Virus record (IMG/VR): IMGVR_UViG_3300036770_008728
Span: 1 to 64,000 of that record
DNA from: a virus
Strand: one strand, 5' to 3'
Length of the DNA stretch: 64,000 nucleotides
In this document: one piece after another, positions 1,707 through 64,000 of the stretch
Position numbering within the stretch: the first letter of the stretch is position 1
Layout of the letters: every line of letters begins with the position of its first letter
Notes under the pieces: generated by a model
Seen by the model: only the letters and a program-made list of their open reading frames with translations
The model's database searches: none
What the model was told of the DNA's origin: nothing
Made by a program: the position numbers and the translations under genes

Positions 1707-1738
1707 TTGTTAATCCTAATGGTTATTGCTGTTGGGCA

Positions 1739-1948
1739 TTAGCCCTCTGTTTTTTCAATCTTACTTGCTGAGACCACTGCTCCTACAGCGTCGACTATCG
1801 CTTGAATCCCACAGGACCCATCTAAGGGGATCCCCACCAGTTGTGCAATCTGAGTCAGCGCCACATTAAGTTGCTGATTCGCTTGCTGCATCTGTTCCAG
1901 CTGCAGTTGTTTGTCAAAGGCCCAAGCCTTTACTTCGTTAATATCCAT
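1739..1948 (-). CDS. Hypothetical coiled-coil protein
   Basis: Start overlaps upstream stop; Q/L heptads. Confidence 0.6.
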   Translation of the reverse strand: MDINEVKAWAFDKQLQLEQMQQANQQLNVALTQIAQLVGIPLDGSCGIQAIVDAVGAVVSASKIEKTEG

Positions 1949-2304
1949 TATTCAGTCGCCAGAACATTTGTCAGTAACCACTGCTCACAAGCACTTACCA
2001 TTTCTGACTCAGCTAATGGCTGTTGAAGCTGCATATTAAAATATTCTGGAAAATTGTTAGGCCGGAAAGTCAGCGGGGGTTTACGTTCCTGTAAGGCCGC
2101 TAAGGACGGATAAATCAAGGCAGTGAAGCCAATTTGAGAATGAGACTGCTGACTGGTATTCACGTACTGTGGGCCAGTTTCAGTAATTTCCAGATTTAAT
2201 TGAGTATGTTGATTGGAACTGTGACTCACATGATTAATAACCACAACTGCTCCGGTATAAACAATACCGTGTGCATCTTCATAGCCATCGGGTACATTGA
2301 TCAT
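1948..2304 (-). CDS. Hypothetical protein, tail-fibre associated
   Basis: Start moved to ATG 2304 (MINVPDG), preceded by AAGGAG; follows fibre genes. Confidence 0.6.
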   Translation of the reverse strand: MINVPDGYEDAHGIVYTGAVVVINHVSHSSNQHTQLNLEITETGPQYVNTSQQSHSQIGFTALIYPSLAALQERKPPLTFRPNNFPEYFNMQLQQPLAESEMVSACEQWLLTNVLATE

Positions 2305-2366
2305 TGAACTCTCCTTTTGATTGATAGAAAAAATAGTGTGCAATAATGGCTCTAATTGAAAAGCCC

Positions 2367-3644
2367 CTAAACACCATAAAAGTTGAAACTGTAGTTTGCT
2401 GAAATGCTGACAATCACTGCGTTATTAAATTTGCTCCGTATTTGAATCGTAACTACACCAGAATATCGACGTTCCAAATTTTGGTGTGTTTGACTTAGTG
2501 TTACGCTGGTATTGTCTTCAGACCATGTGCCAGGTGAGCCCGTATTTGAGGTCATTTGTATTCCAGTAGATAACATGCCACCTGAAGACTGAGACAGGGT
2601 GTAGCGGTATTCTACGGCGCCCTTCATACCCGGCCCATATCCAACATCAAATCCCATATTTCCAGAGAGACCCACACCCCAAGTGATGCTAAGAGTTCTC
2701 ATCACCCCACTGGTGCTACCAGAGACAGATTGCGCCTTTGGGTAAACACTGAAGATCAGTGAGGTTCCAGAGCCGGCAAATTGGGATAATGAGAGGTTTC
2801 CAGAAGAGGGCACACTGGCATTTTTTGTAATGTTGGGGACATAACTCCCCCCCTTTAGATAGGCCCGTAAATTCCGATATGGGGGGTAGGCCAAACTGGT
2901 CCCTCCGAAGAAGTTTATGACATCGGTAAGGCTGATCGGCAGACTTACTTTTGGGAAATTGATTACTTGGCCGGTACCTGGGTCTGTCGCCGTCGTAACT
3001 GTAAAACTGGCACTGACCCCTCCGACGGTCATAGTTCCCGTTCTGGACGCTCCCCAACTAGAGGGCGAAGTTACAAACAGCTGAATTTTATCCCCGGCTT
3101 GCACCGTTGCACTGGTGACACTTGATCCACCATTTACAGTAAAATCGGCGCCGGCGCTGCAGGAGGCTGAGACTGGCGTGTTAATACCCGTTACCGTAAA
3201 GGGTGCTCCAGCAATCCGGTCACTTGTAGATACGCCAGAGTAACTGGGTCCTACACTAAAGGCATCTGGAGTGGCATCAATTCCGTCCGTAATTTTTATG
3301 TAGAGATTGGGGTACATCGAATGCCCCGGCCCGTACATATCTACAACCAGGGTGTCAATATAACCGGAGCCCACAACTGCGGACGCTATGGTTTGTCGAG
3401 TAACGGTTCCGTTTGGATTGGTTATCGGGGAGTTTGATGTGTCTGTCCAATACCCAGAGTCAAAAGCATAGACAAGAAAGAGGTATCCCGTAGCATCGCC
3501 AGTTTCCTGAAATATAAAATTTACGATGTCTCCCTTGGTAATCACTATGGGGTTGGCGTAACTGTTTGCCGGCAAAAAACTGGCCGTGCGGGTACCGAGC
3601 TCTTGGTTATAGTTTGCTCGGCAGTAAACGTTTATTGTGGCCAC
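2367..3644 (-). CDS. Accessory tail fibre / receptor-binding protein
   Basis: S/T/G-rich beta-type sequence, DATPDAFS segment, and ISL....FGG..GGSYVPN...VPSSG.LSLS.F.G motif typical of genes after S74-containing fibres. Confidence 0.65.
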   Translation of the reverse strand: MATINVYCRANYNQELGTRTASFLPANSYANPIVITKGDIVNFIFQETGDATGYLFLVYAFDSGYWTDTSNSPITNPNGTVTRQTIASAVVGSGYIDTLVVDMYGPGHSMYPNLYIKITDGIDATPDAFSVGPSYSGVSTSDRIAGAPFTVTGINTPVSASCSAGADFTVNGGSSVTSATVQAGDKIQLFVTSPSSWGASRTGTMTVGGVSASFTVTTATDPGTGQVINFPKVSLPISLTDVINFFGGTSLAYPPYRNLRAYLKGGSYVPNITKNASVPSSGNLSLSQFAGSGTSLIFSVYPKAQSVSGSTSGVMRTLSITWGVGLSGNMGFDVGYGPGMKGAVEYRYTLSQSSGGMLSTGIQMTSNTGSPGTWSEDNTSVTLSQTHQNLERRYSGVVTIQIRSKFNNAVIVSISANYSFNFYGV

Positions 3645-10189: not shown

Positions 10190-10217
10190 TGTTTGTTAAT
10201 CCCTAATTTGTGCTCTA

Positions 10218-10952: not shown

Positions 10953-11301
10953 CCAGCCTCCGCCGAATTATGTTCATGACTTGACCATCAACGACACCAT
11001 ACAAACCAACCTGGCCGGGAGTAATAATTGCGTGTATTACGTGGGGGAGGTCTGAAACTGCGTTGTAGTCATCAATCGAGAGATTGGCGGGGCCTCGTGG
11101 ATGCGTATGCCAGATGCCGGCCAGTTTATCCTTATACGGTGAAATCTGGGCTTCTGAAATGACAAATGAAGAGTATGGGTCGGAGGACTCGTTGACTAAT
11201 TCAATGATCTGAAAATCCTGGAGAACTACGCCGCAACGCTCATCACCCTCGTAATCAACTCCCAGTTTTTCCCAGAGCAAAGCAATTATTTGTTCTGTCA
11301 T
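10939..11301 (-). CDS. JAB/MPN domain protein (gpK N-terminal part)
   Basis: ERCG ... WHTHP....LS..D metal-binding motif. Confidence 0.85.
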   Translation of the reverse strand: MTEQIIALLWEKLGVDYEGDERCGVVLQDFQIIELVNESSDPYSSFVISEAQISPYKDKLAGIWHTHPRGPANLSIDDYNAVSDLPHVIHAIITPGQVGLYGVVDGQVMNIIRRRLDVTR

Positions 11302-11780
11302 GAGGGGTTCCTTTTTGATAGGCGCTGTCTGACCGCAAATGGTAACTGTGCCAGGGTGTCCATAGTCAGATTTTCAAAAGTGAGCTCATAAGTCGGGTGC
11401 CTGAGAACCCGCGTCACCCGTTCACGCCATTTCAGGTTATATGGGTCAAGACGAGATTTTTGGCCGGTCAGATGATGCAGAATCATTCCCTTGCCCACAT
11501 AAATAGCGATGTGGTTGCTGGTCTCAGTTCTCCCCATCGCCATCAGTAACGCATCACCAATAACAACATCATTGGGGTTTGTGGTGGCCTGCTGAAAACC
11601 TTCGTCGGGGAACAGTCGATCAAAGAAATTAAATCCAGGCAGCATGTACCATTGCGAGGGGCGGGCATAATCTTTCAGCTCCAGCCCCATCACTTCTTTG
11701 TAATACTGGCGGGCGAGGGTATAGCAGTCCTGCCAACCCTCTTCAAAATCAATGCCCAATAAATGTTGAAGGTGCTGCAT
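11298..11780 (-). CDS. NlpC/P60 tail protein (gpK C-terminal part)
   Basis: DCYTL, GD.L, NHIAIY.G.G.ILHH. Confidence 0.9.
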   Translation of the reverse strand: MQHLQHLLGIDFEEGWQDCYTLARQYYKEVMGLELKDYARPSQWYMLPGFNFFDRLFPDEGFQQATTNPNDVVIGDALLMAMGRTETSNHIAIYVGKGMILHHLTGQKSRLDPYNLKWRERVTRVLRHPTYELTFENLTMDTLAQLPFAVRQRLSKRNPS

Positions 11781-12271
11781 CAGAGCCTCACCAATCCAAA
11801 TTCTGGTTGAATAAACCGGCGACCCGGAAGTTTAAAGCTGTTGCCGTCAGACAGCGTACTGAGCTGCAGGCTGATAGCGATAGCATTCAGTTCTTCAACC
11901 TGAGATACATACCACACAGACATGGATGATTGTCCACTGGCCAAATCATCCGGATGCACCTCATACTTGGTGATACGGGCACCATCCATCCAACCTTCAG
12001 AGATGTAGTAGCTGAACAGGCTTTCCGGGTTGGCCAGAACTAAGCGTGGTCTGGACTGTTCGCCTCCGGCACGTTCACCCTCACCGGTCAGGCTAAAGGG
12101 AGCCAATGCCCATGTCTGGCTCTGCCAGTTCACAGTCTTTTCAGCGCAATAACGTAAAGTGACCACCGAAGCATCCGGGGCAGTAATTTGAATTTTCAGG
12201 AGTGTCAGAGGTTCGACCTGAGAGAGGGCGGCAGCATTGGCACGATAGATCTGTGGTATTTGCTGGTTCAT
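11780..12271 (-). CDS. Minor tail protein L-like
   Basis: Start moved to ATG 12271 by conserved RBS motif; VNWQSQTW...PF...G......RP.L..AN; between M and K. Confidence 0.75.
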   Translation of the reverse strand: MNQQIPQIYRANAAALSQVEPLTLLKIQITAPDASVVTLRYCAEKTVNWQSQTWALAPFSLTGEGERAGGEQSRPRLVLANPESLFSYYISEGWMDGARITKYEVHPDDLASGQSSMSVWYVSQVEELNAIAISLQLSTLSDGNSFKLPGRRFIQPEFGLVRL

Positions 12272-12307
12272 GTCTGTTAATCCCGAGTTTTTTCTGCATG
12301 ATAGCTG

Positions 12308-12339
12308 AAAAAACAAAACCCAGCCACAAGGACTGGGTT
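12308..12339 (-). terminator. Intrinsic terminator of the sRNA
   Basis: AACCCAGTC CTTGT GGCTGGGTT then TTGTTTTTT. Confidence 0.85.
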
Positions 12340-12383
12340 AACCATTAGGATTAACAAACATTGACACGAGGCCACTGCTTGCT
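12308..12383 (-). ncRNA. Predicted ~76-nt antisense sRNA complementary to the conserved RBS motif
   Basis: Promoter, 5' hairpin with G-U pairs valid only on this strand, 22-nt AUGUUUGUUAAUCCUAAUGGUU, intrinsic terminator; intergenic. Confidence 0.75.
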
Positions 12384-12390
12384 AATCCAA

Positions 12391-12419
12391 ATATTATTGG
12401 ACAACTGCGGACAAGTCAA
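12391..12419 (-). promoter_or_regulatory. Sigma70-like promoter of the sRNA
   Basis: TTGACT (12419-12414), 17 bp, TAATAT (12396-12391). Confidence 0.7.
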
Positions 12420-12448
12420 GACAACCGCAGACAAATGTTACAAATTGT
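12399..12448. repeat. Five phased (G)ACAA direct repeats over the sRNA promoter
   Basis: ggacaactgc/ggacaagtca/agacaaccgc/agacaaatgt/tacaaattgt, 10-bp period. Confidence 0.7.
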
Positions 12449-12843
12449 TAGGTTGGCTGCTGAATCAGTTTAATCGTGATGTCTTTTACCAGCCCATTTC
12501 CGTTTTTCACTGCCTCAGGTATAACCAATGGTTCCTCAAACCTAACGATCATATTCCCGTAGCGATCACTTGGATAAATAAATTCCTGATGCAGCTCATG
12601 TGCGGCATAGAAGTTTTCCAACGCCAACAAATTGAGTTTCGGCTGAATCGTCGCGGATAGCACGTTGTTACTGTCCTTGAACCACCATAAACCATCAAAC
12701 CGAAGTTGCAGGCTCTTCATCGCTGGGGCATTTGGCTTTGTCGTGTAAGTCCAGTTACCACCCAGTTTTACCTGGGCGCCACGCTTTGGATAGGACACTG
12801 AAGTCACATGGGTTGGAAAATCGAAAGTTTGTAGGGCCATCAC
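12448..12843 (-). CDS. Minor (distal) tail protein M-like
   Basis: Directly after tape measure; LENFY..H.....F motif; size. Confidence 0.7.
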   Translation of the reverse strand: MMALQTFDFPTHVTSVSYPKRGAQVKLGGNWTYTTKPNAPAMKSLQLRFDGLWWFKDSNNVLSATIQPKLNLLALENFYAAHELHQEFIYPSDRYGNMIVRFEEPLVIPEAVKNGNGLVKDITIKLIQQPT

Positions 12844-15800
12844 ATATCTCCAGTGCTAATACGTTTGACTAATTTCTTCGTGGTAGAGTCCCGCATCAGC
12901 GCCTTGTTAACGACAACCAACATGGAATTCTCATCCATCGAATTGGCCTTCTCATCTTCCGATACCACCCAGACGTTAACTACGGCTTCACGCCCGGAGG
13001 ATTCTGAACGTTCTCCGGACGGCATCGCCTCCAGAGACTTCACCGAACCACGGTCCATATTGTTCAGCGTTCTTACGGTATCCACACCCAATGCCTGAAC
13101 AGCCGCACGACGCAACACGAATTCACCCTGGGCCGCGTGAACCAAAGTGCTATCTCGTGTTTGCATACCGCTGGTGATTAAACCACCGGAGGCATATCGT
13201 TTTGGTGCACCCACCTGACCACCGTTCCATAGAGGTTGAGCTCCAGTAGCCATCGAAAGATCCATCTTTGGCGCGAATGATGAAATCGCAAAACTTATCA
13301 GTTGCTGCATCAGGGCGTTGGCTGCAATCTGCATCGCCACATCAGTCAAACTTTGCAGAATGCTGGCAGCAAAACCACGGAAGGATTCACCCGCAGTCAT
13401 GGAGCCTGTTGCGAACTGAGTAAAGAAGTTGCCCAGGCTGCTCCCTGCACCATCCAAAACACTCTTAAGACCCAGAGCTGCTTCGGTCAGACCATCCATG
13501 CCTTCGTAAGCCTTTGACGATTGTGTCAGGGCATAGTCAAACGCATTACGGGCTTGCTGGCCCAGTCCGCCGGCTGCAGTGCCCGCAGAGGTAAACTCAC
13601 CTTCACCGGCCAGTATCTGCTTATCCGTCTGATATGAACCACCTTTAACAATGGCCTGTACCCGGCGACGATCTTGGCTGAGAAATGGTTTATCGCGGAG
13701 CTCAGCCATGGCGGCATTGCCCCGCATCGCATTAGTTTGTTGGCCTGTCTCATAGGTGTTTTTGTCGATTGAGCCCTGCAGTTCCTGAATTTTCTTATTG
13801 TTGTCCTCGATAGTGGGCGTCAGCTTGTTAATTTCCTCCTGATACCGGCGGGCTTCAGCAACGCTCATATTTGGTAATGCTGCAGTTAATTCACTGACAC
13901 GGGCCTGCTTGACTCTGTTGTCCGCCTGATAGGCCGAGATTTCCTGCTGCATCGATCTGACAGCTGTTTGGCTGGCCCGCTCAATCAGAGGGATGCTGAG
14001 CAGGTAGGCCTGTTTCTGACCCTCACTACCCAAGCCGGCGTCATCGGCACGGCCCACCAACTTATCGGCTTGGCGCTTCAGTTCATCCGCCCGGTTTTTC
14101 TCTTTTTCCGCGGCGGCAAGCTGCGCCTTCAAACGGGCAGATTCCTCAGCGTTCGTTTTGTCAAAGTACTGATCGGCGGCCCGGGCAATTTCCTTGGAGT
14201 AGGTCCTCGACACACCGGACAGACGGAAGTCACCTTTTGCAAACAATGAACCGGCTTGCAGGCGGGCCCGTTGCCGGTTTGCGTTCTCGGCGTTACTCCC
14301 CAGACGACTGTCGAGCGCATCACGGGAACTGGCCTGTATTTGTTCCAGCTGCGTCAGGTCTTCACCAGCTTCAGCCTTTGAAATCTCCAGCTGCAGAGCC
14401 GATTGTTTACGTAGCAACGCGGCAATAGCTTTCTCCAGTCGCTCGATATCCTTCAGGTTGTTCGCATCACTGAGCTCCAGTTCCCGAAGCTCCAGTTCGG
14501 CTTCAACACTTCCACCCTCAGCCCGATTCTGACGTTTGAGGGAACGTAGAGCAGATGGGGCGGCAGAGGACTGTGCACTACGTGTTTTGGCCAGGGCACC
14601 ATTAATAAACTCGGGGTAGCGTGAGTCCGTCAGTACTTTGTTGAGTAGTTCCGCCGGCAATTTAGACTTAGCCAGTTCGGTTTGAACGAAGGCTTTAATT
14701 TCTTGGTTGAGGCCCCGAGCCTCAGTCTCAGACTGGCCACGGTACTCCGTCAGGCCCCGGTACAGTCCCAGGGCGTCTTTACCGTATTGTTTTGAGATCT
14801 GCCCATTTCGTTCGGCAACAGATTCCACAAATGTATTGGCTCGTGCACCGAACTGGCGTTTTACGGCCTCCACGATTGCAACGATTTGCTGTTGTTGTGG
14901 GAGCCTGTCTGACTTCTGCAGTTGATTCAGAATGTCATCCACAATCTGAATTTGACCCTCAATATCTTTTTTGGCCAGCTCCAACTCGGCCATTACGCTT
15001 TCCGGTTTTACATAATTGGCGTTGGCTCGGGCCTTCAACAGCTCGGGTTTTGCATCCATTTCCTGCGTTAAAAGAATGAGGTCTGTCAGTCGACCTTTTA
15101 GGGTTTTTTCCAATGCCACGATATCTTCTCTCGGGCTGTTTAGATTTAAACCCTTACCGGCTGATAGCAGTTTTGTGAATGGAGAATCACCGGTATTGAA
15201 CTGGCGATTATTCGCTTTCAAACCCAAGAAATTTGCGAGTTCCGGGTTAAAGGTAGACACAACACTGGTGGTATACCGGTTCTGAGGCCCCATGATGCCC
15301 TGACCGGATTGAGACTGCCCCTGATATCCGGCCAGTAAACCGAACTGGGCCTTAGCTTCATTTCTGGCGGCATCCGACTGACGTGCCAGGTCGATCTCAG
15401 TAAAGGCAATCATCCGACCGCGTAACTCTTCCAGCTTCCCAATCAGGGTATCAAATGCCGGGTTGGTCTCTTCCATGTAGAAGCCCAGATTTTTCAGCTC
15501 TGAGTTCAGCTGACCCACGAACTGGCGCATCATTTCCGGCCCGGTCTTGGCATCTTCCAGAGCCCCGCGCTTGTAGTAGGCATCAGAGATAATGGAGTCG
15601 ACTGATTTGGTACCCGCGGAGTACCTGTCCAGTCTGGCCTGTATCTGGTTGCTTTCAAACTTCGCCATATCCAATGGCTGTTGTAATCGAGCACTGCGAT
15701 TGTTGGAACTCATGGCGTAAGCAGTCAGCGCCGCCACACCTGATAAACCCCAGATCCAGGGGCCACCCAGCACTGTTCGGACCACGGCAAGCACCGCTGA

Positions 15801-18839: not shown

Positions 18840-18857
18840 GTTTGTTAATCCTTATTT

Positions 18858-19528: not shown

Positions 19529-19579
19529 GTCTGTTAATCCTATAGTTGTCGTCATAATAGTAAACCACAGGACCAGAAC

Positions 19580-20423: not shown

Positions 20424-20477
20424 GTTTGTTAATCCTTCAATTGTGATAAAATCAGCTATAAACGGAACAATATAATC

Positions 20478-25677: not shown

Positions 25678-25738
25678 GCTTGTTAATCCTATTCTAATTT
25701 TAGTGGAGGCGGGCTAGGCCCGCACGACCAACGAGCTG

Positions 25739-27292: not shown

Positions 27293-27345
27293 GTTTGTTA
27301 ATCCTCAAATTGTCTATTTATGCTAGAGCATTTTATTTCGAACTT

Positions 27346-31488: not shown

Positions 31489-31621
31489 GCTTGTTAATCC
31501 TCTGATTGTATTGCCTGATTTTGTGCGGCAATTTCAGTATATCACCGGATAATTTGAATGTGGAACGGCAATATTCCGGTATGATTCACTGGAAAGTAAC
31601 ACATCGACAGGATTAACAAGC

Positions 31622-33140: not shown

Positions 33141-33263
33141 GCAAGGGCAGACCAGCTGCAAACGAGGCCCACCGGCTTCGACGCTCTAGTACTGCCCTTA
33201 GCCAGGACACGGTTGGAAACTTCCAACCGAACCGAACCAAGCCAAACAATGGGATTAATAAAC

Positions 33264-35060: not shown

Positions 35061-35079
35061 CAAAATTAAGGATTAACAA

Positions 35080-35379
35080 ATGAGCTCAGCACTGCACCAG
35101 AAAATCGACGCGATGATAGTGAACAAGCCGGGGCGCTTTGTGCTTCTGACCCAGACCATGAATGGCCAACAGGAGCAGGAGTTCACCAACGCTCTGGACC
35201 TGCTTGCTGCAGCCAAATCCTTTGCGGCCACCAGTCTCTTTAACGGAGAACCTCTGTGTCCTGTGGACATGATGTATGTCCAGGCTGGCCAGAAGAAATG
35301 GACCTGGACCCCGCAGGACTACAACGAGCTGCGGGGCCTTGAGCAGACCCCGAACTTCCGTATTTGGCGAGCTGCTTAG
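35080..35379 (+). CDS. Hypothetical protein
   Basis: Conserved RBS motif. Confidence 0.75.
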   Translation: MSSALHQKIDAMIVNKPGRFVLLTQTMNGQQEQEFTNALDLLAAAKSFAATSLFNGEPLCPVDMMYVQAGQKKWTWTPQDYNELRGLEQTPNFRIWRAA

Positions 35380-35413: not shown

Positions 35414-35464
35414 TCTGACCGTCACCTGACATTCAGGGACAGAACAATTAGGGATTAACAAAAC

Positions 35465-35668
35465 ATGACTGCTACAACAGCTTCTAAACAGGCCCCAGAC
35501 TGGGCCAGTCGAATTACCTGCGACCTACCCCTTGCCTCGGTGGGTTCTGCTGCACCTGAAGCGATTCAGGCCGACCTCCGTCGATTTACGAACCAAGCTC
35601 TTGCTCTGGTTTGGCGCAGACTCTCAAAATCGACCCGTGAATGGCTCACTCAGTGGTGGGCATCATGA
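35465..35668 (+). CDS. Hypothetical protein
   Basis: Conserved RBS motif. Confidence 0.7.
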   Translation: MTATTASKQAPDWASRITCDLPLASVGSAAPEAIQADLRRFTNQALALVWRRLSKSTREWLTQWWAS

Positions 35669-39246: not shown

Positions 39247-39513
39247 TTAAACCGGTGCTGGTGGTTCTTCAGGTGGCCACGGTGGTAAATCGCCACCACC
39301 GCTCATTGGTGTAGGCGTTGGGCTCGGTTCTGGTTCAGGTGTTTTTTCCGCCGGGGTCTCAGCGGCGAGTAAAGCCTGGCCTTCAGAAGACAACGTGACC
39401 TTATCGCTTACCGATTGCTCGATCCCAGAAGCGACTGGGTTTGCTGTCACCACGGGGCTCTGGCTCGGTAATACCGTCATTTCCTTGTTCTGGTAACGGG
39501 TGTTGATATCCAT
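39247..39513 (-). CDS. Small disordered Pro-rich protein
   Basis: AAGGAG SD; DKVTLSSEGQALL and GGGDLPPWPP motifs. Confidence 0.7.
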   Translation of the reverse strand: MDINTRYQNKEMTVLPSQSPVVTANPVASGIEQSVSDKVTLSSEGQALLAAETPAEKTPEPEPSPTPTPMSGGGDLPPWPPEEPPAPV

Positions 39514-39799
39514 CTGTTTCTCCTTTGAGGGATTTTAACCAGTGGTGAGGTAGGATTTTTGCTAACCACTGCGGTAGTACGGGATTCTGTTCAATGTTGT
39601 CTTCAGAAAATAAATCCAAGACCACTAACGGATCTGGTTCCGTCAACCAAACCCATTTTCGAACAATATCAAAGCTCGTGTTGATATTGGCCTCTATGTT
39701 GTAAACGGTTTGTCTTGAGCATTTTAGTTTCTCAGCCATTTCTGCAACAGACCAATTTTTGGCCTCTCGCATTGATTTTAAGCGTTCACCTGTATCCAC
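39401..39799 (-). CDS. XRE-family HTH regulator (candidate repressor)
   Basis: GERLKSMRE...WS..EMAEKL..SRQTVYNIE; divergent from early operon. Confidence 0.85.
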   Translation of the reverse strand: MDTGERLKSMREAKNWSVAEMAEKLKCSRQTVYNIEANINTSFDIVRKWVWLTEPDPLVVLDLFSEDNIEQNPVLPQWLAKILPHHWLKSLKGETDGYQHPLPEQGNDGITEPEPRGDSKPSRFWDRAIGKR

Positions 39800-39975: not shown

Positions 39976-40193
39976 GTTATTTGTACTATTTAGCCATTAG
40001 GATTTAAAACAAAATTAAGAGCGCCAAAGGGCGAACTTTTAGTGTCAGAGGGATTTGCACGGATCGCCACTGACCATTAGGATTAACAAACATCTGTTTG
40101 TCATGGGGCTGTACATCGGCCCCTATAACTTGCTCTGTAAACCGGAGCCATTTGCTTCTAAAACGAAGTAACGAACCATTAGGATTAACAATT

Positions 40194-40554: not shown

Positions 40555-40577
40555 GACTAACCATTAGGATTAACATC

Positions 40578-41353: not shown

Positions 41354-41373
41354 CAATCAGGGGATTAACAAAC

Positions 41374-41923: not shown

Positions 41924-41967
41924 TCCTGTACATCGGGACTGTCACTAACCATTAGGATTAACAAATT

Positions 41968-43530: not shown

Positions 43531-43588
43531 ACCGGCCCCCGCCAAAGGGGTGGGGCCTTTAGTACCCTAACCATTAGGATTAACGAAT

Positions 43589-44392: not shown

Positions 44393-44447
44393 TTTTCCCC
44401 CGCCAAAGGGTGGGCTCTTTACTACCAACCATTAGGATTAACAAATC

Positions 44448-46927: not shown

Positions 46928-46979
46928 CCACGGTCCTGCCAAAGGGTGGGACTTTCACAACCATTAGGATTAACAAACT

Positions 46980-47450: not shown

Positions 47451-47474
47451 TCAAACAATTCGGGATTAACAAAC

Positions 47475-48833
47475 ATGACAGAGCAGGTTAGCTATACCCA
47501 GCTGAAAGGGCACCGGGGCGGCGTTCGCCTTTGGATTGAAGGTAGTAAATTATCTACCGCCGGCTTCAAACGTGAAGCTCGTTACAACCGCGTCATCAAT
47601 GGTGATGAGATTCACCTGCAGCTGGCGACGAACGGGGAATTCAAAGTCTCTGGCCGCAGCCGCAACGGTGTTGACATTCCCATCATCGACATGTCGTTGG
47701 GCCGGCATAAAGATTTTCCGGAAGGCACTCGTATCCGTGCCGTGTTCTCCAGCGGCAACATCCATATCAGCATCCACCACGAAGACGCGGCACAGAAAGC
47801 CCGTGAAGAGCGCTTTGTGGCCAATGCCTCATCTGGCCAGTTGAGTGAAGGTTCGGCCTGTACCGGCGGTGGCATCAGCACTGCAGCGGTTCACATGGCG
47901 GTGGGTGATGCCGGATTTAATTCCCGGGTCGCCTGGGTGGTCGATACAGAGATTAAGTATCTGCAGTCCGCCTACGCTCAGAACTTCGCTATCACCGATG
48001 AAACGGTGTGTTTTGAGGCCCGACTGGAAGAGCTGGAGCCACACCTGCTGTCGCCGGTGGATATCTTCAGCTTCAGTCTGCCGTGTGCCGGCTTCAGCCG
48101 GTCCGGTACCAGTAAGCATGGCTTGAGTCCGGAAGAGCACGAATCGGGCGTCAGCTTGTTTGGGCTGATGTCGATGATCCGCGCTGCAAATCCGGCGGTC
48201 CTGTTCTCCGAAAACGTTCGGGAAGCACAGGGCAGTCCGATGTACATCCTGATGCAGCAGGAGCTGATCCGCCGTGGTTACCGGATTGTTGAAGCGGTTC
48301 TGGATAACAGCCACACCGGCACCTTTGAAAACCGGCAACGTTACTGGTTCATGGCTATTTCAAATGGTCTGCCTGCTGAGCTGCTGGCCGATGTCTTTAA
48401 GATGGAACCGGCCCGCAAGTTCCACAAATTGGCCGAGCTGCTGGACGCCGAGGTTCCGGACGATGTGTGGGCGGATAACCAGTACCTCAAAGACAAGCAG
48501 GTGCGGGACCAGGCCGCAGGCAAAGGATTCGCAACCAGACAGCTTCTGAGCGGTTCTGAGAGCAAGGTTGGTACCATCGGTCGCTTCTATCACAAACGTC
48601 GCAGCACAGAGCCATTCGTTGTGAATGCTGAGGGGAAAGAGCGCCTGCTGTCGGTCGCTGAACATGCCCGCTGCAAATCCATCCCTGAAGTGCTGGTGGC
48701 CAAATGCAATATGACCACCGGCCATGAAATCCTGGGCCAGTCGGTGGATTTCCAACAGGCCCTTCAACCCATGTACCGACTGATGGTGGCTGTCCGCCGC
48801 TGGCTCGGTATGGACTTAGCGGAGGCTGTATGA
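47475..48833 (+). CDS. DNA cytosine-C5 methyltransferase with N-terminal extension
   Basis: CTGGG (variant motif I), LPCAGFS (IV), ENV (VI), E.RQR (VIII), R.LSV.E.AR (IX), LGQSV (X). Confidence 0.9.
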   Translation: MTEQVSYTQLKGHRGGVRLWIEGSKLSTAGFKREARYNRVINGDEIHLQLATNGEFKVSGRSRNGVDIPIIDMSLGRHKDFPEGTRIRAVFSSGNIHISIHHEDAAQKAREERFVANASSGQLSEGSACTGGGISTAAVHMAVGDAGFNSRVAWVVDTEIKYLQSAYAQNFAITDETVCFEARLEELEPHLLSPVDIFSFSLPCAGFSRSGTSKHGLSPEEHESGVSLFGLMSMIRAANPAVLFSENVREAQGSPMYILMQQELIRRGYRIVEAVLDNSHTGTFENRQRYWFMAISNGLPAELLADVFKMEPARKFHKLAELLDAEVPDDVWADNQYLKDKQVRDQAAGKGFATRQLLSGSESKVGTIGRFYHKRRSTEPFVVNAEGKERLLSVAEHARCKSIPEVLVAKCNMTTGHEILGQSVDFQQALQPMYRLMVAVRRWLGMDLAEAV

Positions 48834-49920: not shown

Positions 49921-49948
49921 CCCGCAACAACCAGAAGGATTAACAAAC

Positions 49949-51067: not shown

Positions 51068-51098
51068 TTCAATTCAACAATCAGAAGGATTAACAGAC

Positions 51099-51514: not shown

Positions 51515-51568
51515 AACAAAAAACGCCGGCGGCAACCGTCGCCGGCACAACAATTAGGATTAACGAAC

Positions 51569-52591
51569 ATGAACATGCGTTTTGAATTTCCGGCAGTCAA
51601 AGGTCGCCAGGGTGACCGTGATTTTTATATTGCCTCTATCCCATTTTCAGTACTGGGACGTCTTTTAGAAATTGATGCAGGTAACCCCCTGCAACGAAGC
51701 CAGCGCGTCGTTGATGCTGGCCGAGCAACGGCGATTGTCGATTACTTCTATCAAAACAACGACAACTACGTGCTTCCAAGTTTAACTGGCGTGGTTGAAG
51801 ACCCCAGTTTGGATTTCAAAGATGTCGGCGGTGGCGCCGGAGTTTTATCACTGAAGATGGATGCCATCATCAAGCTGTTTGATGGACAACACCGTGCGAC
51901 GGCTATTACTTCAATTGTGAAATCACATGCTTTCCGCAGTAAATGGGAAGACCAGACCATTGGTGTGCAGCTGTTTGTTGGCATGACCTTGCCACAACGT
52001 CAGCAGGCGTTCTCCGATATCAACAGCAAAGCCAAGGCCGTGAGTAAGTCCCTGAACCTGGCCTACGATGTCCGCGACAAAACAACGGCTGAGTTCCGGC
52101 AACATGCTGAATGGGTGTTCGGGATCCATGTGGACTACGAAAAGAACATAGCGACGAAGGGGCAACTGACGTGGTTCAGCTTCAAACATGTTGTGGATTG
52201 CTTCCGGCTGCTCTGTGGTATGAAAGCCAAAGACAAGTTTACCAAGGCGTCCAGTGAATTAATCATGCGTTGGTTTAACCATGTGGAATTGCGTCGGTCC
52301 TGTGACTGGAATCATGGCCATAAACCAGATCATATCAGCCGAACGGCACTGGGCTTGCTGGCACTGACTCGCGTCTTTAACTATGCCCATTCGGCTCAGA
52401 TCACTCCAGACGAGCTGGCTGTCAGCTTGGCTAAAATTGATTTTAACCGTGAGAACCCGCTGTGGTTAAACGTCTGTGTGGATGCGAAAGGCCGGATGAT
52501 TGCGAACCCGCAGTCAATTAAGGCCACGGCACGGAAGATACTGGAAGCCTGTGAATACACAGTCCCAGCGGATTGTCCGGCTCTTCAGTAA
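51569..52591 (+). CDS. DGQHR-domain / DndB-like protein
   Basis: FPAVKG.QG..FY, QR, DGQHR, Q.FSDIN..A..VS.SL...YD.RD. Confidence 0.9.
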   Translation: MNMRFEFPAVKGRQGDRDFYIASIPFSVLGRLLEIDAGNPLQRSQRVVDAGRATAIVDYFYQNNDNYVLPSLTGVVEDPSLDFKDVGGGAGVLSLKMDAIIKLFDGQHRATAITSIVKSHAFRSKWEDQTIGVQLFVGMTLPQRQQAFSDINSKAKAVSKSLNLAYDVRDKTTAEFRQHAEWVFGIHVDYEKNIATKGQLTWFSFKHVVDCFRLLCGMKAKDKFTKASSELIMRWFNHVELRRSCDWNHGHKPDHISRTALGLLALTRVFNYAHSAQITPDELAVSLAKIDFNRENPLWLNVCVDAKGRMIANPQSIKATARKILEACEYTVPADCPALQ

Positions 52592-52647
52592 TTTAAGAAC
52601 CCGCCGGCGGCAAAGGTCGCCGGCATCAACCATTAGGATTAACGATC

Positions 52648-53747: not shown

Positions 53748-53797
53748 ATTCCCTGTCGGGGCAAAGGCCCCGACTCTCTAACCATTAGGATTAACAA

Positions 53798-55087
53798 ATG
53801 ACCAATGCACTGCAGAACCTGCCGCCTTTTCCCGAGCCGGTACCCAACCAATACTTCATCGACGGCCGCACCGTAGACCTCTCTGAAGACCAAATTTTAG
53901 TCCGGGATACCATTTTGTCTGGCCGGAACGTTTTCCTGACGGGGGAGCCCGGTACCGGCAAATCGGTGCTGACCAAAGTATTAAAATATGAATTTGCTAA
54001 ACGCCGGAAGTCACTGGTGGTTCTGGCTCCTACAGGAATTGCCGCTTTGAACGTCGGTGGTTCCACCATCCACAAGTTCTTCAAATTCAAAATTGACCCG
54101 CTGGAACCCTACTACGGCGACTCGGTGGGGCGCTCTTTCCGGATGCGTGAACTTATCCGGGCAACAGATGTTCTGCTGATTGACGAAATTTCAATGGTCC
54201 GCAGTGACGTGTTTGTTGCGATGGATAAGGCAATGCGGGGCGCGATGCTGGAACCGAATAAACCGTTTGGTGGTCGGCAAGTGATCTTGGTTGGTGACTT
54301 TTTCCAGCTTCCACCCGTAGTTTCAGACCCGAACCTGTACCCGTGGCTCGACCAATTCTTTGGTGGCCGTGCCGCCTACAACACAGCCAGCTGGGTCGAA
54401 GGTAATTTTGAGTGCCTGGGCCTGACTGAGATGCACCGTCAAACGGGAGACCCGATGTTTGTGAACGCCCTGCGGCATATCCGCAACCGGGACACTCAAG
54501 GTTTTGGGATGGTGAATCAGATGTGTCGGGTGACTCGGGATTTAGAGGGGACCATTATCGTGTTCACTCGGGATGCCGCTCGGGTTATTAACGGCCGGCG
54601 CCTGAACGAACTGGATGCCACACCATTCACCTTCGTTGCAGAGATTGAAAAAGGTGCGGTGGCGCCGGTTGATGCTGAAATCACATTGAAAGTCGGTGCC
54701 CGCGTCATTCTGATGGCCAACACTGATGCTTTTGTGAATGGGGACATGGGTGAGGTTATCGAACTCCGTACAGATACCATTGTGGTGAAACTCGACCGAG
54801 GCCACCGGATTGAAGTATGCCGGCATGTCTGGGAGCAAAAAGAGTACGTGGTGGCTTCCGATGGCCAGATCACGGAAAAGGGTGGCGCTAAATTCTCCCA
54901 GTTTCCTCTGGCACTCGGCTGGGCCATCACAGCGCACAAATCACAAGGCCAGACCCTCGACAAGGTGACGCTGCTGCTCGATACCCGCCCTTTCGAACCT
55001 GGCCAGCTGTATGTGGCCCTGAGCCGCGTTCGCCGTGCAGAAGACCTGCTGCTTGGCCGTCCGTTAGATAACTTTGACATGGTGTGA
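53798..55087 (+). CDS. Pif1/RecD-like SF1B helicase
   Basis: GEPGTGKS, APTGIAA, DEISMV, GDFFQLPPV, AITAHKSQGQTL, YVALSR. Confidence 0.95.
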   Translation: MTNALQNLPPFPEPVPNQYFIDGRTVDLSEDQILVRDTILSGRNVFLTGEPGTGKSVLTKVLKYEFAKRRKSLVVLAPTGIAALNVGGSTIHKFFKFKIDPLEPYYGDSVGRSFRMRELIRATDVLLIDEISMVRSDVFVAMDKAMRGAMLEPNKPFGGRQVILVGDFFQLPPVVSDPNLYPWLDQFFGGRAAYNTASWVEGNFECLGLTEMHRQTGDPMFVNALRHIRNRDTQGFGMVNQMCRVTRDLEGTIIVFTRDAARVINGRRLNELDATPFTFVAEIEKGAVAPVDAEITLKVGARVILMANTDAFVNGDMGEVIELRTDTIVVKLDRGHRIEVCRHVWEQKEYVVASDGQITEKGGAKFSQFPLALGWAITAHKSQGQTLDKVTLLLDTRPFEPGQLYVALSRVRRAEDLLLGRPLDNFDMV

Positions 55088-56405: not shown

Positions 56406-56496
56406 AAAGTTTGGGGGGCTTTTCGTACCCCCAAACTTCGTTAAAATACGCCAAGGACGACAAAGGTCGGCCGTTAAATGATTAGGATTAACAAAC

Positions 56497-59612: not shown

Positions 59613-59642
59613 TAAAAACAATCAAAATTAGGATTAACAACC

Positions 59643-59939: not shown

Positions 59940-60114
59940 TTACACTTGTCCTCAGCTAATACCTCGTAACATTGGTCAACCCCCGGTACTGGGGGTTTCT
60001 TTGAGGTTTAGCTTGAGACTGAGCGTATCGGCCTTGGACCTTCCAAGGTTCAATTCCGATGCTCTTAGCATCTCCACAATCTGGGATTAACAATCATAAT
60101 CGAGGTAAAAAATC

Positions 60115-61068: not shown

Positions 61069-61136
61069 TCGCTACCGGAGGCCGGCAAACGCCGGCCTCC
61101 ACAAACAATTCGGATTAACAAACAAGCAGGTGACCT

Positions 61137-62950: not shown

Positions 62951-63865
62951 ATGTTTTTTGAAAATCTGAAGATTTACCGTGTGACTGAAAAGCTCCCGTT
63001 TGTTAAAGACGAAGACGCGCTTCAAGCCCAGTTGGAAGAGCATCAGTTCACTCCCTGCATGGCACATGACATGTTGAAGATGGGCTTTGTATCTCCGTTG
63101 GTTCCTGGCGGTAAGCAGCTGTTCCGAAACGTCGGCGGTAACTACTACTTTGCCCTGAAGCGTCAGTGGAAGGTGTTGAAGTCCACCATGATCAACGAGC
63201 AGCTGCAGCCGCAGATCACCCAGAAAGAACAGGAACGGGGCCGGCCGCTGGGACGTAAAGAAAAGTCGGGTCTGAAAGATGAAACCATCCAAAGTCTGTT
63301 GCCACGGGCGTTGACCGAATCATCTACTATCGTTGGGATGTATGTCCCGGCGAAAGACCTGCTGATTTTCAATACCAGCAGTCATGGCCGTGCTGAAGAC
63401 TTTATGGCTTTGTTACGTAAAGCTCTGGGCAGTTTACCCGCGGTACCATGGTTTGATGCGAACAAACTGTCCTTTGCAATGAATTCCTGGTTGGGCCAAC
63501 AACACCTGCCACAGGATTTTGTGCTGGGTCACACCGTAGAGCTGAAAGCGCCCGATGAAGACGGTGCAGTGGCACAGTTCAAATCTCACCTGTTGACCGG
63601 CGCCGACGTTCAAAGCCATTTAGAAGACAAAATGGTGACGAAGCTGGAGCTCTATAAGCCTGAGCATTTAAGTTTCACGATTGTTGAAGATGGCCGGATC
63701 TGCAAACTCCGCTGGCGAGAGCTCCTTATTAACCAGAACGATGAGCTGGGCTGGGAAGATTTGGAGGCCCGACTTGAAGCAGACAGTCTGCTGATGTTGG
63801 ATACCATTACAACTTTGTTGGACAAACTGACGGGCTCAATGCAAGCCGTTGACGACGCAGCGTGA
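62951..63865 (+). CDS. rdgC: Recombination-associated protein RdgC
   Basis: MFF.NL.IYR, F.PC....GFV.P, LLPRA, LLRKALGSLP, V.KL.L. Confidence 0.95.
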   Translation: MFFENLKIYRVTEKLPFVKDEDALQAQLEEHQFTPCMAHDMLKMGFVSPLVPGGKQLFRNVGGNYYFALKRQWKVLKSTMINEQLQPQITQKEQERGRPLGRKEKSGLKDETIQSLLPRALTESSTIVGMYVPAKDLLIFNTSSHGRAEDFMALLRKALGSLPAVPWFDANKLSFAMNSWLGQQHLPQDFVLGHTVELKAPDEDGAVAQFKSHLLTGADVQSHLEDKMVTKLELYKPEHLSFTIVEDGRICKLRWRELLINQNDELGWEDLEARLEADSLLMLDTITTLLDKLTGSMQAVDDAA

Positions 63866-63870
63866 CAATC

Positions 63871-63893
63871 AGGGTGGCTTCGGCCACCCCTTT
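63871..63893 (+). terminator. cUUCGg terminator hairpin
   Basis: GGGTGGC TTCG GCCACCC CTTT. Confidence 0.75.
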
Positions 63894-63913
63894 AAAATTT
63901 GGGATTAGCAAAC

Positions 63914-64000
63914 ATGCGGTTATTTAACGAAATCACAGGGCGCTGGGAGCAGTTGGTCGATGCCACCAATATGCACATCTTCATCCCCCAGATTGTAGCG
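63914..64000 (+). CDS. Partial hypothetical protein (runs off window)
   Basis: Motif variant GGGATTAGCAAAC ATG. Confidence 0.6.
   Translation, partial: MRLFNEITGRWEQLVDATNMHIFIPQIVA

What the first reader, a model, noticed from the sequence alone, without database searches (positions are those of the whole stretch)
1707..63916. Genome-wide extended RBS motif (AACCATT)AGGATTAACAAAC-ATG
Seen immediately before ATG, always in coding orientation. Minus-strand starts: 1706, 10189, 12271, 18839, 19528, 20423, 25677, 27292, 31488. Plus-strand starts: 31622, 33264, 35080, 35465, 40194, 40578, 41374, 41968, 43589, 44448, 46980, 47475, 49949, 51099, 51569, 52648, 53798, 56497, 59643, 63914. A normal SD does not need a conserved TTAACAAAC spacer. 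The motif tends to mark the first gene of each translationally coupled run, while internal genes use ordinary GGAG(G) and overlaps, so blocking it could silence whole runs. Comparable known elements are mycobacteriophage cluster K start-associated sequences and L5 stoperators.
Basis: seen in the sequence. Interest (0 to 1): 0.85.

Follow-up and report, generated by a model that had tools for sequence, protein, structure and literature searches.

The report
Phage ribosome-site tag mirrored by small RNA
A prophage puts the same private sequence at the ribosome-binding site of about a third of its genes and also appears to encode one small RNA that is the exact mirror of that sequence, so a single RNA could switch off most of the phage's lytic programme.

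Summary
GGATTAAC occurs 39 times in the 84-kb provirus; AGGATTAACAAAC (up to 2 mismatches) occurs 33 times in the window against 1.4 in shuffles. All 29 listed starts check out. The motif heads gene runs, while internal genes overlap and use GGAG-type sites. Four congeneric host-proxy genomes (17 Mb) hold 12 copies of motif+ATG; the provirus holds 30.

The motif sits where the ribosome-binding site must be (AGGA, 9 nt, ATG). The one inverted copy (12340-12359) lies in a promoter-to-terminator unit on the minus strand between two tail genes, predicting a 77-nt RNA with a 20-nt exact complement of the extended motif.

Ten related phage genomes carry different motif variants. Each has the same unit at the same place, with a seed matching its own variant. 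The seed and terminator are invariant in a relative that is 21% diverged around them. Clade members (5 of 5 tested) encode a ProQ/FinO RNA chaperone; outgroups without the motif (0 of 5) do not.

No RNA data exist; the RNA, its pairing and its effect are inferred. This scan noted the same arrangement earlier in related phages. My literature searches found no description.

The parts
12391..12419 (-). sigma-70-like promoter of the predicted small RNA (TTGACT, 17 nt, TAATAT)
   Evidence: Both hexamers are unchanged in a relative whose spacer differs at 5 positions. The same layout occurs in 9 other genomes.
12308..12384 (-). predicted ~77-nt small RNA: 5' hairpin, single-stranded seed, terminator hairpin and U tail
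   Evidence: Folds at -27.3 kcal/mol, z = -4.6 against 200 shuffles. No Rfam family matches. The same three-part architecture is predicted in 10 related genomes. The 5' end is predicted, not mapped.
12336..12363 (-). seed region; 12340-12359 is the exact reverse complement of AACCATTAGGATTAACAAAC
   Evidence: 34 sites in the genome (33 plus the seed's own DNA) form 14 or more contiguous pairs with it, against 0-4 for 20 shuffled seeds. No substitutions in a relative that is 21% diverged around it.
12307..12339 (-). intrinsic terminator of the small RNA (9-pair stem, then TTGTTTTTT)
   Evidence: invariant in the diverged relative
1705..1717 (-). motif copy, ATG at 1706 (extended AACCATTA form, 22 contiguous pairs with the seed)
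10191..10203 (-). motif copy, ATG at 10189 (2185-aa tail fibre / gpJ-like protein)
12272..12284 (-). motif copy, ATG at 12271 (L-like tail gene just downstream of the small RNA)
18840..18852 (-). motif copy, ATG at 18839 (tape measure protein)
19529..19541 (-). motif copy, ATG at 19528
20424..20436 (-). motif copy, ATG at 20423
25678..25690 (-). motif copy, ATG at 25677 (capsid-like protein)
27293..27305 (-). motif copy, ATG at 27292
   Evidence: Orthologous starts in relatives carry their own variant.
31489..31501 (-). motif copy, ATG at 31488 (first gene of the leftward structural block)
31609..31621 (+). motif copy, ATG at 31622
33251..33263 (+). motif copy (GGATTAAT), ATG at 33264
35069..35081 (+). 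motif copy, ATG at 35080
35451..35463 (+). motif copy, ATG at 35465
39994..40004 (+). partial ORF-less copy (CCATTAGGATT) in the early leader
   Evidence: 15 contiguous pairs with the seed
40073..40093 (+). ORF-less full copy in the early leader; ties for the longest complementarity to the seed in the genome (23 pairs)
   Evidence: KB12-38 has the same feature in its early leader.
40181..40193 (+). motif copy, ATG at 40194 (first early gene, divergent from the XRE gene)
40567..40574 (+). motif core, ATG at 40578
41361..41373 (+). motif copy, ATG at 41374 (fills a 20-nt gap)
41954..41966 (+). motif copy, ATG at 41968
43576..43588 (+). motif copy, ATG at 43589 (23 pairs with the seed)
44434..44446 (+). 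motif copy, ATG at 44448
46966..46978 (+). motif copy, ATG at 46980
47462..47474 (+). motif copy, ATG at 47475 (C5 DNA methylase)
49936..49948 (+). motif copy, ATG at 49949 (DNA ligase)
51086..51098 (+). motif copy, ATG at 51099
51556..51568 (+). motif copy, ATG at 51569 (DndB-like)
52635..52647 (+). motif copy, ATG at 52648
53787..53799 (+). motif copy, ATG at 53798 (PIF1-type helicase)
56484..56496 (+). motif copy, ATG at 56497
59630..59642 (+). motif copy, ATG at 59643
60083..60095 (+). offset copy: the real start at 60115 has its own GAGG
61111..61123 (+). offset copy: the real start at 61137 has its own AGGTGA
63901..63913 (+). motif copy (GGATTAGC), ATG at 63914 (family A DNA polymerase)
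39401..39799 (-). XRE/HTH_3 regulator, divergent from the early operon; has no motif

Best explanation
The motif is the phage's own standardised ribosome-binding region (SD-like AGGA, a 9-nt spacer, then ATG). It is used wherever translation must start afresh after an intergenic gap. Its conservation beyond the SD is imposed by base-pairing with one phage-encoded trans-acting small RNA of about 77 nt, made from 12384 to 12308 on the minus strand between the M-like and L-like tail genes. The RNA's single-stranded seed is complementary to the stretch from upstream of the SD to the first two bases of the ATG at about 33 sites. Pairing would therefore occlude the ribosome site of each first cistron and, through coupling and polarity, quiet the overlapping genes behind it. 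A phage-encoded ProQ/FinO-domain protein (genome 74358-74867, outside the window) is the likely chaperone. The integrase, the XRE regulator and the right-arm minus-strand genes lack the motif, and the clade is temperate. The most likely role is therefore an RNA layer of prophage silencing or immunity. The ORF-less, best-matching copies in the early leader would act as the first target or as a titrating decoy. Shown directly by sequence: the motif statistics, its position, the complementarity, the co-variation and the conservation. Inferred: that the RNA is made, that it pairs, that it represses, and its biological role.
For: (1) Position. The core lies 2-5 nt before ATG at 30 sites. No other SD is present at these sites, and N-termini align with orthologues in relatives.
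(2) The unit. The only inverted copy sits between a TTGACT-17-TAATAT promoter-like site and a terminator-like hairpin with a T tract. The RNA folds with z = -4.6.
(3) Target count. 34 sites (33 plus self) form 14 or more contiguous pairs, against 0-4 for 20 shuffled seeds.
(4) Conservation across genomes. A promoter / 5' hairpin / seed / terminator unit of 76-82 nt lies in the same M/L tail-gene gap in all 11 clade genomes examined: G000, G001 contig, KB12-38, G043, G044, G047, G052, G048, G049, G050, G053.
(5) Co-variation. Each seed matches its own genome's start motif (GGATTAAC..., GGATTGAC..., GGAAATTGACG, GGAAATCGACG). The matrix of median seed-target duplex energies is strongest on the diagonal for 8 of the 9 seeds. 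G050's seed is the exception: it scores its own targets (-18.0) better than those of G000, KB12-38, G048 and G049, but worse than those of the G043 group (-16.8... i.e. no better). The G000 seed scores -23.6 kcal/mol on its own targets and -9.2 to -16.0 on the others; the G043-type seed scores -5.2 on G000 targets.
(6) Pairing logic. Where the seed has A, the targets have only U (G052: 0 C among 28 exact copies). Where it has G, the targets have C or U (G048 8 C/14 T; G049 7 C/11 T; each C count includes the inverted copy that encodes the RNA).
(7) Substitution pattern in G000. At positions -1 and +6 to +9, 18 of 21 departures from the consensus are A>G or C>T, which keep a wobble pair.
(8) Conservation island. 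In a relative differing at 158 of 759 aligned columns, 12363-12267 has 0 substitutions. The -35 and -10 hexamers are intact while the spacer changed. The 5' hairpin changed but keeps its pairing.
(9) Outgroups. JWF and Lumi, which lack the motif, have abutting M and L genes and no unit.
(10) Chaperone. The ProQ/FinO domain (PF04352) is found in 5 of 5 clade genomes and 0 of 5 outgroups.
(11) Life style. All 5 clade genomes tested encode an integrase.
Against: - No RNA evidence of any kind. No RNA run was listed as a holder, and the runs I laid are contigs flagged 'probably DNA'. The promoter, 5' end and terminator are consensus predictions.
- In G000 half of the 20-nt anti-motif lies in the 3' arm of the predicted 5' hairpin, so access may need opening.
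- About half of the G000 sites have A instead of C at -6/-5, which breaks pairing with the seed's GG. Their complementarity is only 13-16 nt.
- In KB12-38 only 12 sites reach 14 or more pairs, and runs of 11-12 with G-U allowed are at chance level.
- The presence/absence contrasts (unit, ProQ) separate one clade from its outgroups. They may count as a single evolutionary event.
- One RNA gene against about 33 sites on abundant lytic transcripts raises a stoichiometry problem for repression during lytic growth.
- The direction of the effect (repression or not) is untested.
- Covariation inside the RNA's helices among six close relatives is thin: 1 compensatory pair, 3 one-sided changes, 0 broken.
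Confidence: 0.65

Rival explanations
1. A purely cis-acting translational element (SAS-like). The motif is an optimised, unstructured A/C-rich initiation region read directly by the 30S subunit and protein S1. Its uniformity would come from copy-and-paste or gene conversion, and the inverted copy would be incidental.
For: RBS position, AGGA at canonical spacing, an AU-rich upstream part, and use at de novo initiation sites only. Similar unexplained elements exist in Cluster K mycobacteriophages and in phage Mordin (passages read).
Against: It does not explain why one inverted copy sits in a conserved promoter-terminator unit at a syntenic site in 11 genomes, nor why that copy changes with the motif. 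It does not explain the A-only-U versus G-with-C/U pattern, nor the ORF-less copies.
Confidence: 0.1
2. A protein-binding site. A phage protein (the ProQ/FinO-like protein itself, the XRE regulator or another) recognises the motif on mRNA or DNA, and the lineage variants track changes in that protein.
For: Lineage-specific concerted variation would fit a co-evolving protein. A FinO-domain RNA-binding protein is encoded.
Against: Departures from the consensus follow base-pairing rules (G-U tolerated) rather than any protein logic I can name. FinO-domain proteins are known to bind structured RNAs with terminator hairpins rather than short linear motifs (established knowledge, recalled). The motif is strand-specific and not palindromic.
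Confidence: 0.1
3. A cis fold-back only. The anti-motif is part of the late transcript and masks the RBS of the L-like gene 65-110 nt downstream. The other copies are just RBSs.
For: In every genome the anti-motif lies directly upstream of a motif-bearing tail gene.
Against: A terminator lies between the two partners, and a conserved sigma-70-like promoter lies directly upstream of the anti-motif. A cis role for one gene would not hold about 33 other sites to the same sequence.
Confidence: 0.07
4. A phage-specific promoter whose transcripts start at or just before the ATG (leaderless or short leader). Tandem copies in the early leader would be tandem promoters.
For: The motif follows hairpins at the heads of gene runs. 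Five copies lie upstream of starts that have their own SD. Several of these read AAACA[AG]G, as if the conserved A were +1.
Against: No sigma-70-type promoter was scored at motif sites. No T7-type RNA polymerase domain was found, although that control was silent, and none appeared among the large proteins scanned. Relatives have GGAG at 7 nt before ATG, a textbook SD. Some copies fill 20-nt gaps inside operons.
Confidence: 0.03
5. Recombination boundary: the repeated 20-nt tag plus hairpin acts mainly as a landing pad for cassette shuffling, like the PeSL cassettes of T4-type phages (recalled).
For: Early genes are arranged as hairpin + tag + gene cassettes. G048/G049 carry two motif variants that split by module.
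Against: It does not explain the fixed distance to ATG, the single inverted copy in an RNA-like unit, or the seed/motif co-variation. It may be a by-product.
Confidence: 0.05

Closest known systems
Start-associated sequences (SAS) of Cluster K mycobacteriophages (Pope et al. 2011, PMC3203893; passages read)
   Same: A short asymmetric repeat that contains an SD core and sits a few bases before ATG. It has one orientation and many copies per genome, is virtually absent from the host, and is conserved beyond what rRNA pairing needs. The function of SAS was still called unknown in 2025 (PMC12699233, passages read).
   Different: Different sequence and host phylum. Here the motif is on structural as well as early genes, whereas SAS are confined to the non-structural arm. 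Here a complementary small-RNA unit and a FinO-domain gene accompany it; in the passages I read, no such partner is reported for SAS.
c4 antisense RNA of phages P1 and P7 (Citron and Schuster 1990, as described in the review PMC12197685; passages read)
   Same: A phage immunity RNA that pairs with the ribosome-binding region of a phage mRNA in trans. Seed/target differences define heteroimmunity between related phages.
   Different: c4 acts on one operon (icd/ant) and is processed from the same transcript (recalled). Here the RNA has its own predicted promoter, lies far from its targets and matches about 33 start sites on both arms.
FinO-domain chaperone systems: FinP/FinO of F-like plasmids and RocR/RocC of Legionella
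   Same: A FinO/ProQ-domain protein encoded beside a small RNA that has a terminator hairpin and U tail. The RNA pairs at the RBS of its targets; RocR has several targets that share a box.
   Different: Those are plasmid and chromosomal systems with one or a few targets. Here a phage would apply the principle to a third of its own genes. Binding of the phage protein to this RNA is untested.
26-bp repeat upstream of 8 gene starts in Citrobacter phage Mordin (PMC4611695; passage read)
   Same: An SAS-like repeat in a phage of a Gram-negative host.
   Different: Only 8 copies and a different sequence. No partner RNA is reported, and I did not examine that genome.

Membership tests
Cluster K start-associated sequences (SAS) | Asymmetric short repeat within a few bases upstream of the start codon, nearly always ATG, in one orientation | tested here: met
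   30 copies have ATG 2-5 nt after the core. All 32 flagged motif genes use ATG, against 59 ATG and 12 GTG among the others.
Cluster K start-associated sequences (SAS) | Consensus GGGATAGGAGCCC, in Cluster K mycobacteriophages, confined to the non-structural arm | tested here: not met
   The consensus here is (AACCATT)AGGATTAACAAAC. It lies on both arms, including capsid, tape-measure and tail-fibre genes. This is an analogue, not a member.
Trans-acting antisense immunity RNA (P1/P7 c4 type) | RNA complementary to the ribosome-binding region of phage mRNA | tested here: met
   20-nt exact complement; 33 sites with 14 or more contiguous pairs, against 0-4 for shuffled seeds
Trans-acting antisense immunity RNA (P1/P7 c4 type) | Seed and target differ together between related phages | tested here: met
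   Seed-target energy matrix strongest on the diagonal for 8 of 9 seeds, across at least 5 motif types; A/G rule
Trans-acting antisense immunity RNA (P1/P7 c4 type) | The RNA exists as a discrete transcript and confers immunity | not testable with these tools
   No RNA reads available
FinO/ProQ-dependent small-RNA system | FinO/ProQ-domain protein encoded by the same element | tested here: met
   PF04352 at 43.4 bits (cut-off 27) in the ORF at genome 74358-74867. Found in 5 of 5 clade genomes and 0 of 5 outgroups.
FinO/ProQ-dependent small-RNA system | Small RNA with a 3' terminator hairpin and U tail, and a single-stranded seed | tested here: met
   Predicted folds in 11 genomes. These are predictions only.
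FinO/ProQ-dependent small-RNA system | Physical binding of the protein to the RNA | not testable with these tools
   Needs CLIP or EMSA
L5-type stoperators | Asymmetric repressor-binding DNA sites spread through the genome, not tied to start codons | tested here: not met
   The position is locked to ATG. No repressor binding could be tested.
Phage-specific (single-subunit RNA polymerase) promoters | A phage-encoded RNA polymerase plus a conserved promoter of about 20 bp at variable distance from starts | tested here: not met
   No PF00940 match, though the control was silent, so this is weak. The distance to ATG is fixed.

The most novel reading that the evidence does not exclude
An RNA-based immunity system that works at the level of translation for a whole phage. 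One small RNA plus a phage FinO-domain chaperone holds the entire lytic programme of the prophage off by masking a private RBS tag on every independently translated gene. ORF-less high-affinity copies in the early leader set a titration threshold for induction. Each tag/seed pair defines a heteroimmunity group that evolves through G-U wobble intermediates, and G048/G049 (seed G; targets C in one module, U in the other) would be caught in mid-transition.
Probability: 0.35. Interest if true: 0.9.

Novelty: new variant of a known kind. Interest (0 to 1): 0.8.

Why it matters
Start-associated sequences have been an unexplained feature of phage genomes since 2011. Here a comparable element comes with a concrete, testable partner: a small RNA whose seed co-varies with the tag, and a dedicated FinO-type chaperone.

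If confirmed, three things would follow:
- It would be the first case I could find of a virus tagging a third of its own genes for control by a single RNA.
- It would give a mechanism for SAS-like motifs.
- It would add a translational layer to prophage immunity and heteroimmunity.

It would also offer a compact, orthogonal tag/RNA pair for synthetic control of many genes at once. A cultured relative (Pseudoalteromonas phage KB12-38) makes the experiments feasible.

Tried and rejected
- Exact-motif scan of IMG/VR (AGGATTAACAAACATG): 29 contigs with one hit each, which is chance level and gave no relatives.
- Portal protein alone against IMG/VR: no relatives. An alignment of four portals then gave 80 loci.
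- More distant relatives do not share the motif. JWF, Lumi, Seuss, TCUP2199 and Mystique show no GGATTRAC enrichment. In the 45-50% portal-identity loci, the top ATG-associated 8-mers were coding or tandem repeats, not start motifs.
- Sigma-70 promoter scan across 39.6-59.6 kb: 15 sites against 16.9 expected, none at motif copies. The hairpins upstream of motifs mostly lack T tracts on the + strand.
- Rfam on 12200-12500: nothing near a gathering score.
- T7-type RNA polymerase family in G000: no match, but the control rang nowhere, so this is weak.
- Duplex energies with the full-length RNA were uninformative, because the GC-rich terminator pairs with random windows (median -18). I switched to seed-only energies.
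- Contiguous-pair thresholds of 11-12 with G-U allowed are at chance level: shuffled seeds gave 21-110 sites in G000 and 8-43 in KB12-38. Only 14 or more was used.
- Second inverted copies in G044 (56231, 643) and G047 turned out to be ordinary motif copies ahead of oppositely oriented genes, not a second RNA.
- The pattern GGANNATYGACGAT for G051/G053-G056 was ill chosen and found almost nothing. G051 has few copies, and I did not find its RNA unit.
- Expression: no RNA holder listed. The four runs laid on 11000-15000 are contigs flagged 'probably DNA' or DNA. They show related phages but say nothing about transcripts.
- Helix covariation among six close relatives is thin: 1 compensatory pair.
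- The nine-sequence alignment misaligns G000, KB12-38 and G050, so I built no covariance model.
- Supplements of the papers were not opened. Tables S of PMC3203893 and PMC12699233 may hold SAS details that I did not see.
- Literature searches for a phage RNA complementary to a genome-wide RBS motif found none. These are word searches of an open-access library, not proof of absence.

Full report
**What the record is.** The window is the first 64 kb of an 84,406-bp IMG/VR provirus.
- The left end is a tyrosine integrase (1-1194). The right end (83468-84406) is a host malate dehydrogenase gene, so the record is an integrated prophage with a short host flank.
- The leftward block encodes terminase, capsid-like protein, tape measure and a gpJ-like fibre. 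Portal: 27346-28809, named from relatives.
- The rightward blocks encode methylase, ligase, DndB-like protein, helicases, PolA, a primase-helicase-like protein and SbcCD-like proteins.
- The closest named relative is Pseudoalteromonas phage KB12-38 (portal 64% identical). Next come Xylophilus phage Lumi, Achromobacter phage JWF, Caulobacter phage Seuss and several Acinetobacter phages.
I name the host no finer than that.

- Counts: AGGATTAACAAAC with up to 2 mismatches occurs 33 times in the window, against 1.4 in shuffles. The exact core GGATTAAC occurs 39 times in the record.
- Placement: 36 of the 39 lie in gaps, in the direction of the next gene. Thirty of these have ATG 2-5 nt after the core.
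- Host control: four host-proxy genomes (17 Mb) hold 12 copies of core-N2-5-ATG; the 84-kb provirus holds 30.
- Head-of-run claim: this also holds. In my heuristic gene model of 103 genes, 27 of 28 motif genes have an upstream gap over 10 nt (median 53.5). Among the other genes, 46 of 66 have a gap of 10 nt or less (median 1), and most use GGAG, GAGG, GGAGG or AGGAG. One of my 32 motif flags (55587) is a false call.
- Gene model: it is my own (long ORFs scored by codon usage). I dropped six small or antisense ORFs from it before counting.

**Anatomy of the motif.**
- The invariant part is GGATTAAC. Downstream, AAAC varies mostly by A>G and C>T.
- Upstream there are two classes. AACCATTA occurs at about 13-15 sites, mainly in the 40-54 kb cassettes that follow GC-rich hairpins. 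A looser A(A/C)AATT(A/G/T) occurs elsewhere.
- AGGA lies 9 nt before ATG, a canonical SD distance, and no other SD is present at these starts. The motif must therefore serve as the RBS. This is an inference from position.
- Five copies are not followed by a start: 40080, 60084, 61112, 70768 and 75312. One copy, 12340-12359 on the + strand, is inverted relative to its block.

**Relatives have their own variants.**
- KB12-38 has GGATTGAC 27 times, 26 of them just before a start.
- IMG/VR relatives with 60-64% portal identity have AAATTTGGA(A/G)ATTGACG-ATG, GGA(A)ATCGACG-ATG or TTGGA(G)ATTGACGAT-ATG. Complete genomes hold about 39-49 matches to the pattern with up to 2 mismatches, against 0-2 for the reversed control.
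- More distant relatives have no such motif.
- The element is therefore clade-wide, and all copies in a genome change together. That points to a trans-acting partner.

**The partner.** A note of this scan (e1-6122978) suggested that the inverted copy is a small RNA gene. I tested the idea as follows.
- The unit in G000: on the minus strand the copy is preceded by TTGACT-17-TAATAT and followed by a 9-pair hairpin with TTGTTTTTT. The 81-nt stretch folds at -27.3 kcal/mol (z = -4.6) into a 5' hairpin, a single-stranded CCUAAUGGUUAA and a terminator. It matches no Rfam family.
- Synteny: the unit fills the 176-nt gap between the M-like and L-like tail genes. The same gap in KB12-38 holds TTGACT-17-TACTAT, an anti-motif matching that phage's variant, and a terminator.
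- Other genomes: eight further genomes show the same unit (G043, G044, G047, G052, G048, G049, G050, G053). Promoter hexamers are TTGACA/TTGACG/TTTACA with TAGTAT/TAATCT/TAATAT at 16-17 nt. The predicted RNAs are 77-82 nt with the anti-motif in the single-stranded middle.
- No ORF on the other strand: in six of them the inverted copy reads ATA where a start codon would be, so it is not an RBS for a gene on that strand.
- Outgroups: JWF and Lumi, which lack the motif, have abutting M and L genes and no room for the unit.

**Seed and targets co-vary.**
- Median seed-target duplex energies are strongest on the diagonal for 8 of the 9 seeds; G050's seed, which covers only 14 nt, is the exception. 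The G000 seed gives -23.6 kcal/mol on G000 targets, against -16.0 (KB12-38) and -9.2 to -13.5 (others). The KB12-38 seed gives -21.6 on its own targets and -12.4 on G000's. The G043-type seed gives about -21.6 on its own and -5.2 on G000's.
- One position follows pairing rules. Genomes whose seed has A have only U in the targets (G052: 28 exact copies, 0 with C). Genomes whose seed has G have both C and U (G048 8 C/14 T, G049 7 C/11 T; each C count includes the inverted copy itself). In those two genomes the C variants cluster in the structural block and the T variants dominate the early block.
- In G000, 34 sites (33 plus the seed's own DNA) form 14 or more contiguous pairs with the seed, against 0-4 for 20 shuffled seeds and 4 for the reversed seed.
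- At positions -1 and +6 to +9, 18 of 21 departures from the consensus keep a wobble pair. This is suggestive only, since A-rich positions offer many A>G changes.

**A conservation island.**
- A pond-MAG contig carries a relative that differs from G000 at 158 of 759 aligned columns around this locus. From 12363 to 12267 (seed, terminator, next motif and ATG) there is no substitution and one 1-nt indel.
- The -35 and -10 hexamers are unchanged while the spacer has five changes. The 5' hairpin has changes that keep its pairing.
- At five orthologous motif sites in the same relative the core is intact, and three of four spacer changes are A<>G.

**A chaperone.** A second note (e1-6034955) said that a related phage encodes a ProQ/FinO protein. 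Tested here:
- PF04352 is found in G000 (ORF at genome 74358-74867, 43.4 bits against a cut-off of 27), G044, G048, G050 and KB12-38, that is 5 of 5.
- It is found in 0 of 5 outgroups: JWF, Lumi, TCUP2199, Seuss and Mystique.
- This contrast, like the presence of the RNA unit, separates one clade from its outgroups and may count as one event.

**Likely mechanism and role.**
- Pairing from upstream of the SD to the AU of the start codon is the classical way in which small RNAs block 30S binding (established knowledge). Because the tagged genes head overlapping runs, the block would spread to the genes behind them.
- All five clade genomes tested encode an integrase.
- The integrase, the XRE regulator (39401-39799) and the right-arm minus-strand genes lack the tag.
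- In both G000 and KB12-38 the divergent regulator gene is followed by an early leader. That leader carries ORF-less copies with the longest complementarity in the genome: 23 pairs (tied with 43565) in G000 and 22 in KB12-38. The tagged first early gene comes next.
- I therefore favour an RNA layer of prophage silencing or immunity, with the leader copies as prime target or decoy. The existence of the RNA, the pairing, the sign of the effect and the role are all inferred. No RNA data could be obtained.

**Rivals.** I weigh five under Rival explanations: a purely ribosome-directed enhancer, a protein site, a cis fold-back for the L-like gene, a promoter for leaderless transcripts, and a recombination tag. 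None accounts for a conserved promoter-seed-terminator unit whose seed tracks the motif.

**Known comparators.**
- Cluster K SAS are the closest described cis element (PMC3203893, passages). Their function was still called unknown in 2025 (PMC12699233, passages).
- P1/P7 c4 is the closest phage RNA (review PMC12197685, passages).
- FinP/FinO and RocR/RocC are the closest chaperone systems (recalled).
- svsR of a lambdoid prophage targets host genes and is not comparable (PMC12803456, abstract).
- My word searches found no description of a phage RNA complementary to a genome-wide RBS tag.
- This scan noted the same arrangement earlier on other, related phage DNA.

Noticed in passing
window 40020-40034, 43535-43555, 44397-44415, 46930-46948, 52598-52620, 53752-53772, 56445-56462 (approximate): GC-rich hairpins with a shared C-AAAG-G loop sit 8-15 nt upstream of the extended AACCATTA form of the motif in the early cassettes. 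Most lack a T tract on the + strand, so they do not score as terminators. KB12-38 has its own version (GGGGTAACGTTACCCC, 18 copies) in the same place.
   Followed up: partly
genome 74358-74867 (+), outside the window (L057:11358-11867): A 169-aa protein with a ProQ/FinO domain. It uses an ordinary GGAG site rather than the motif, and lies between the primase-helicase-like gene and the SbcCD-like genes.
   Followed up: yes
G048 and G049 (IMG/VR relatives; loci L070, L071): Two motif variants coexist in one genome: GGAAATCGACGAT mainly on structural genes and GGAAATTGACGAT on early genes. The RNA seed carries G, which pairs with both. This is either a module swap or a motif change caught midway.
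   Followed up: partly
window 1-1194 and genome 83468-84406: The record is cut at gene boundaries: an integrase with an Arm-DNA-bind_3 domain at the left end and a host malate dehydrogenase gene at the right. No tRNA gene was found in the window.
   Followed up: partly
window 47475-48833 and 51569-52591: A C5 cytosine methylase and a DndB-like protein, both headed by the motif. They are possible DNA-modification or anti-restriction functions.
   Followed up: no
JWF (L043-L047) and Lumi (L052-L056): Outgroup phages have their own over-represented palindromes (GGTTCGTAACGAACC 11 times in JWF; TTACTAGTCTAGTAA 6 times in Lumi). Their role is unknown, and they are not start-associated.
   Followed up: no
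L145-L150, just downstream of the RNA terminator: In the G043/G044/G047/G052/G048/G049 group a further promoter-like pair (TTCAAT, 16 nt, TATACT) lies between the RNA terminator and the L-like gene. This suggests that tail-gene transcription restarts there.
   Followed up: no
L100:2460-2560 and L096:1240-1330: A distant relative carries a tandem array of a 13-bp unit (about 8 copies). Another carries nested inverted repeats around TTGACATCGGACGATGTCAA. Both are unrelated to the start motif.
   Followed up: no
window 1494-1706 (-): A 70-aa gene next to the integrase carries the full extended motif (22 contiguous pairs with the seed). It could be an excisionase-type gene under tight RNA control; I did not identify it.
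   Followed up: no
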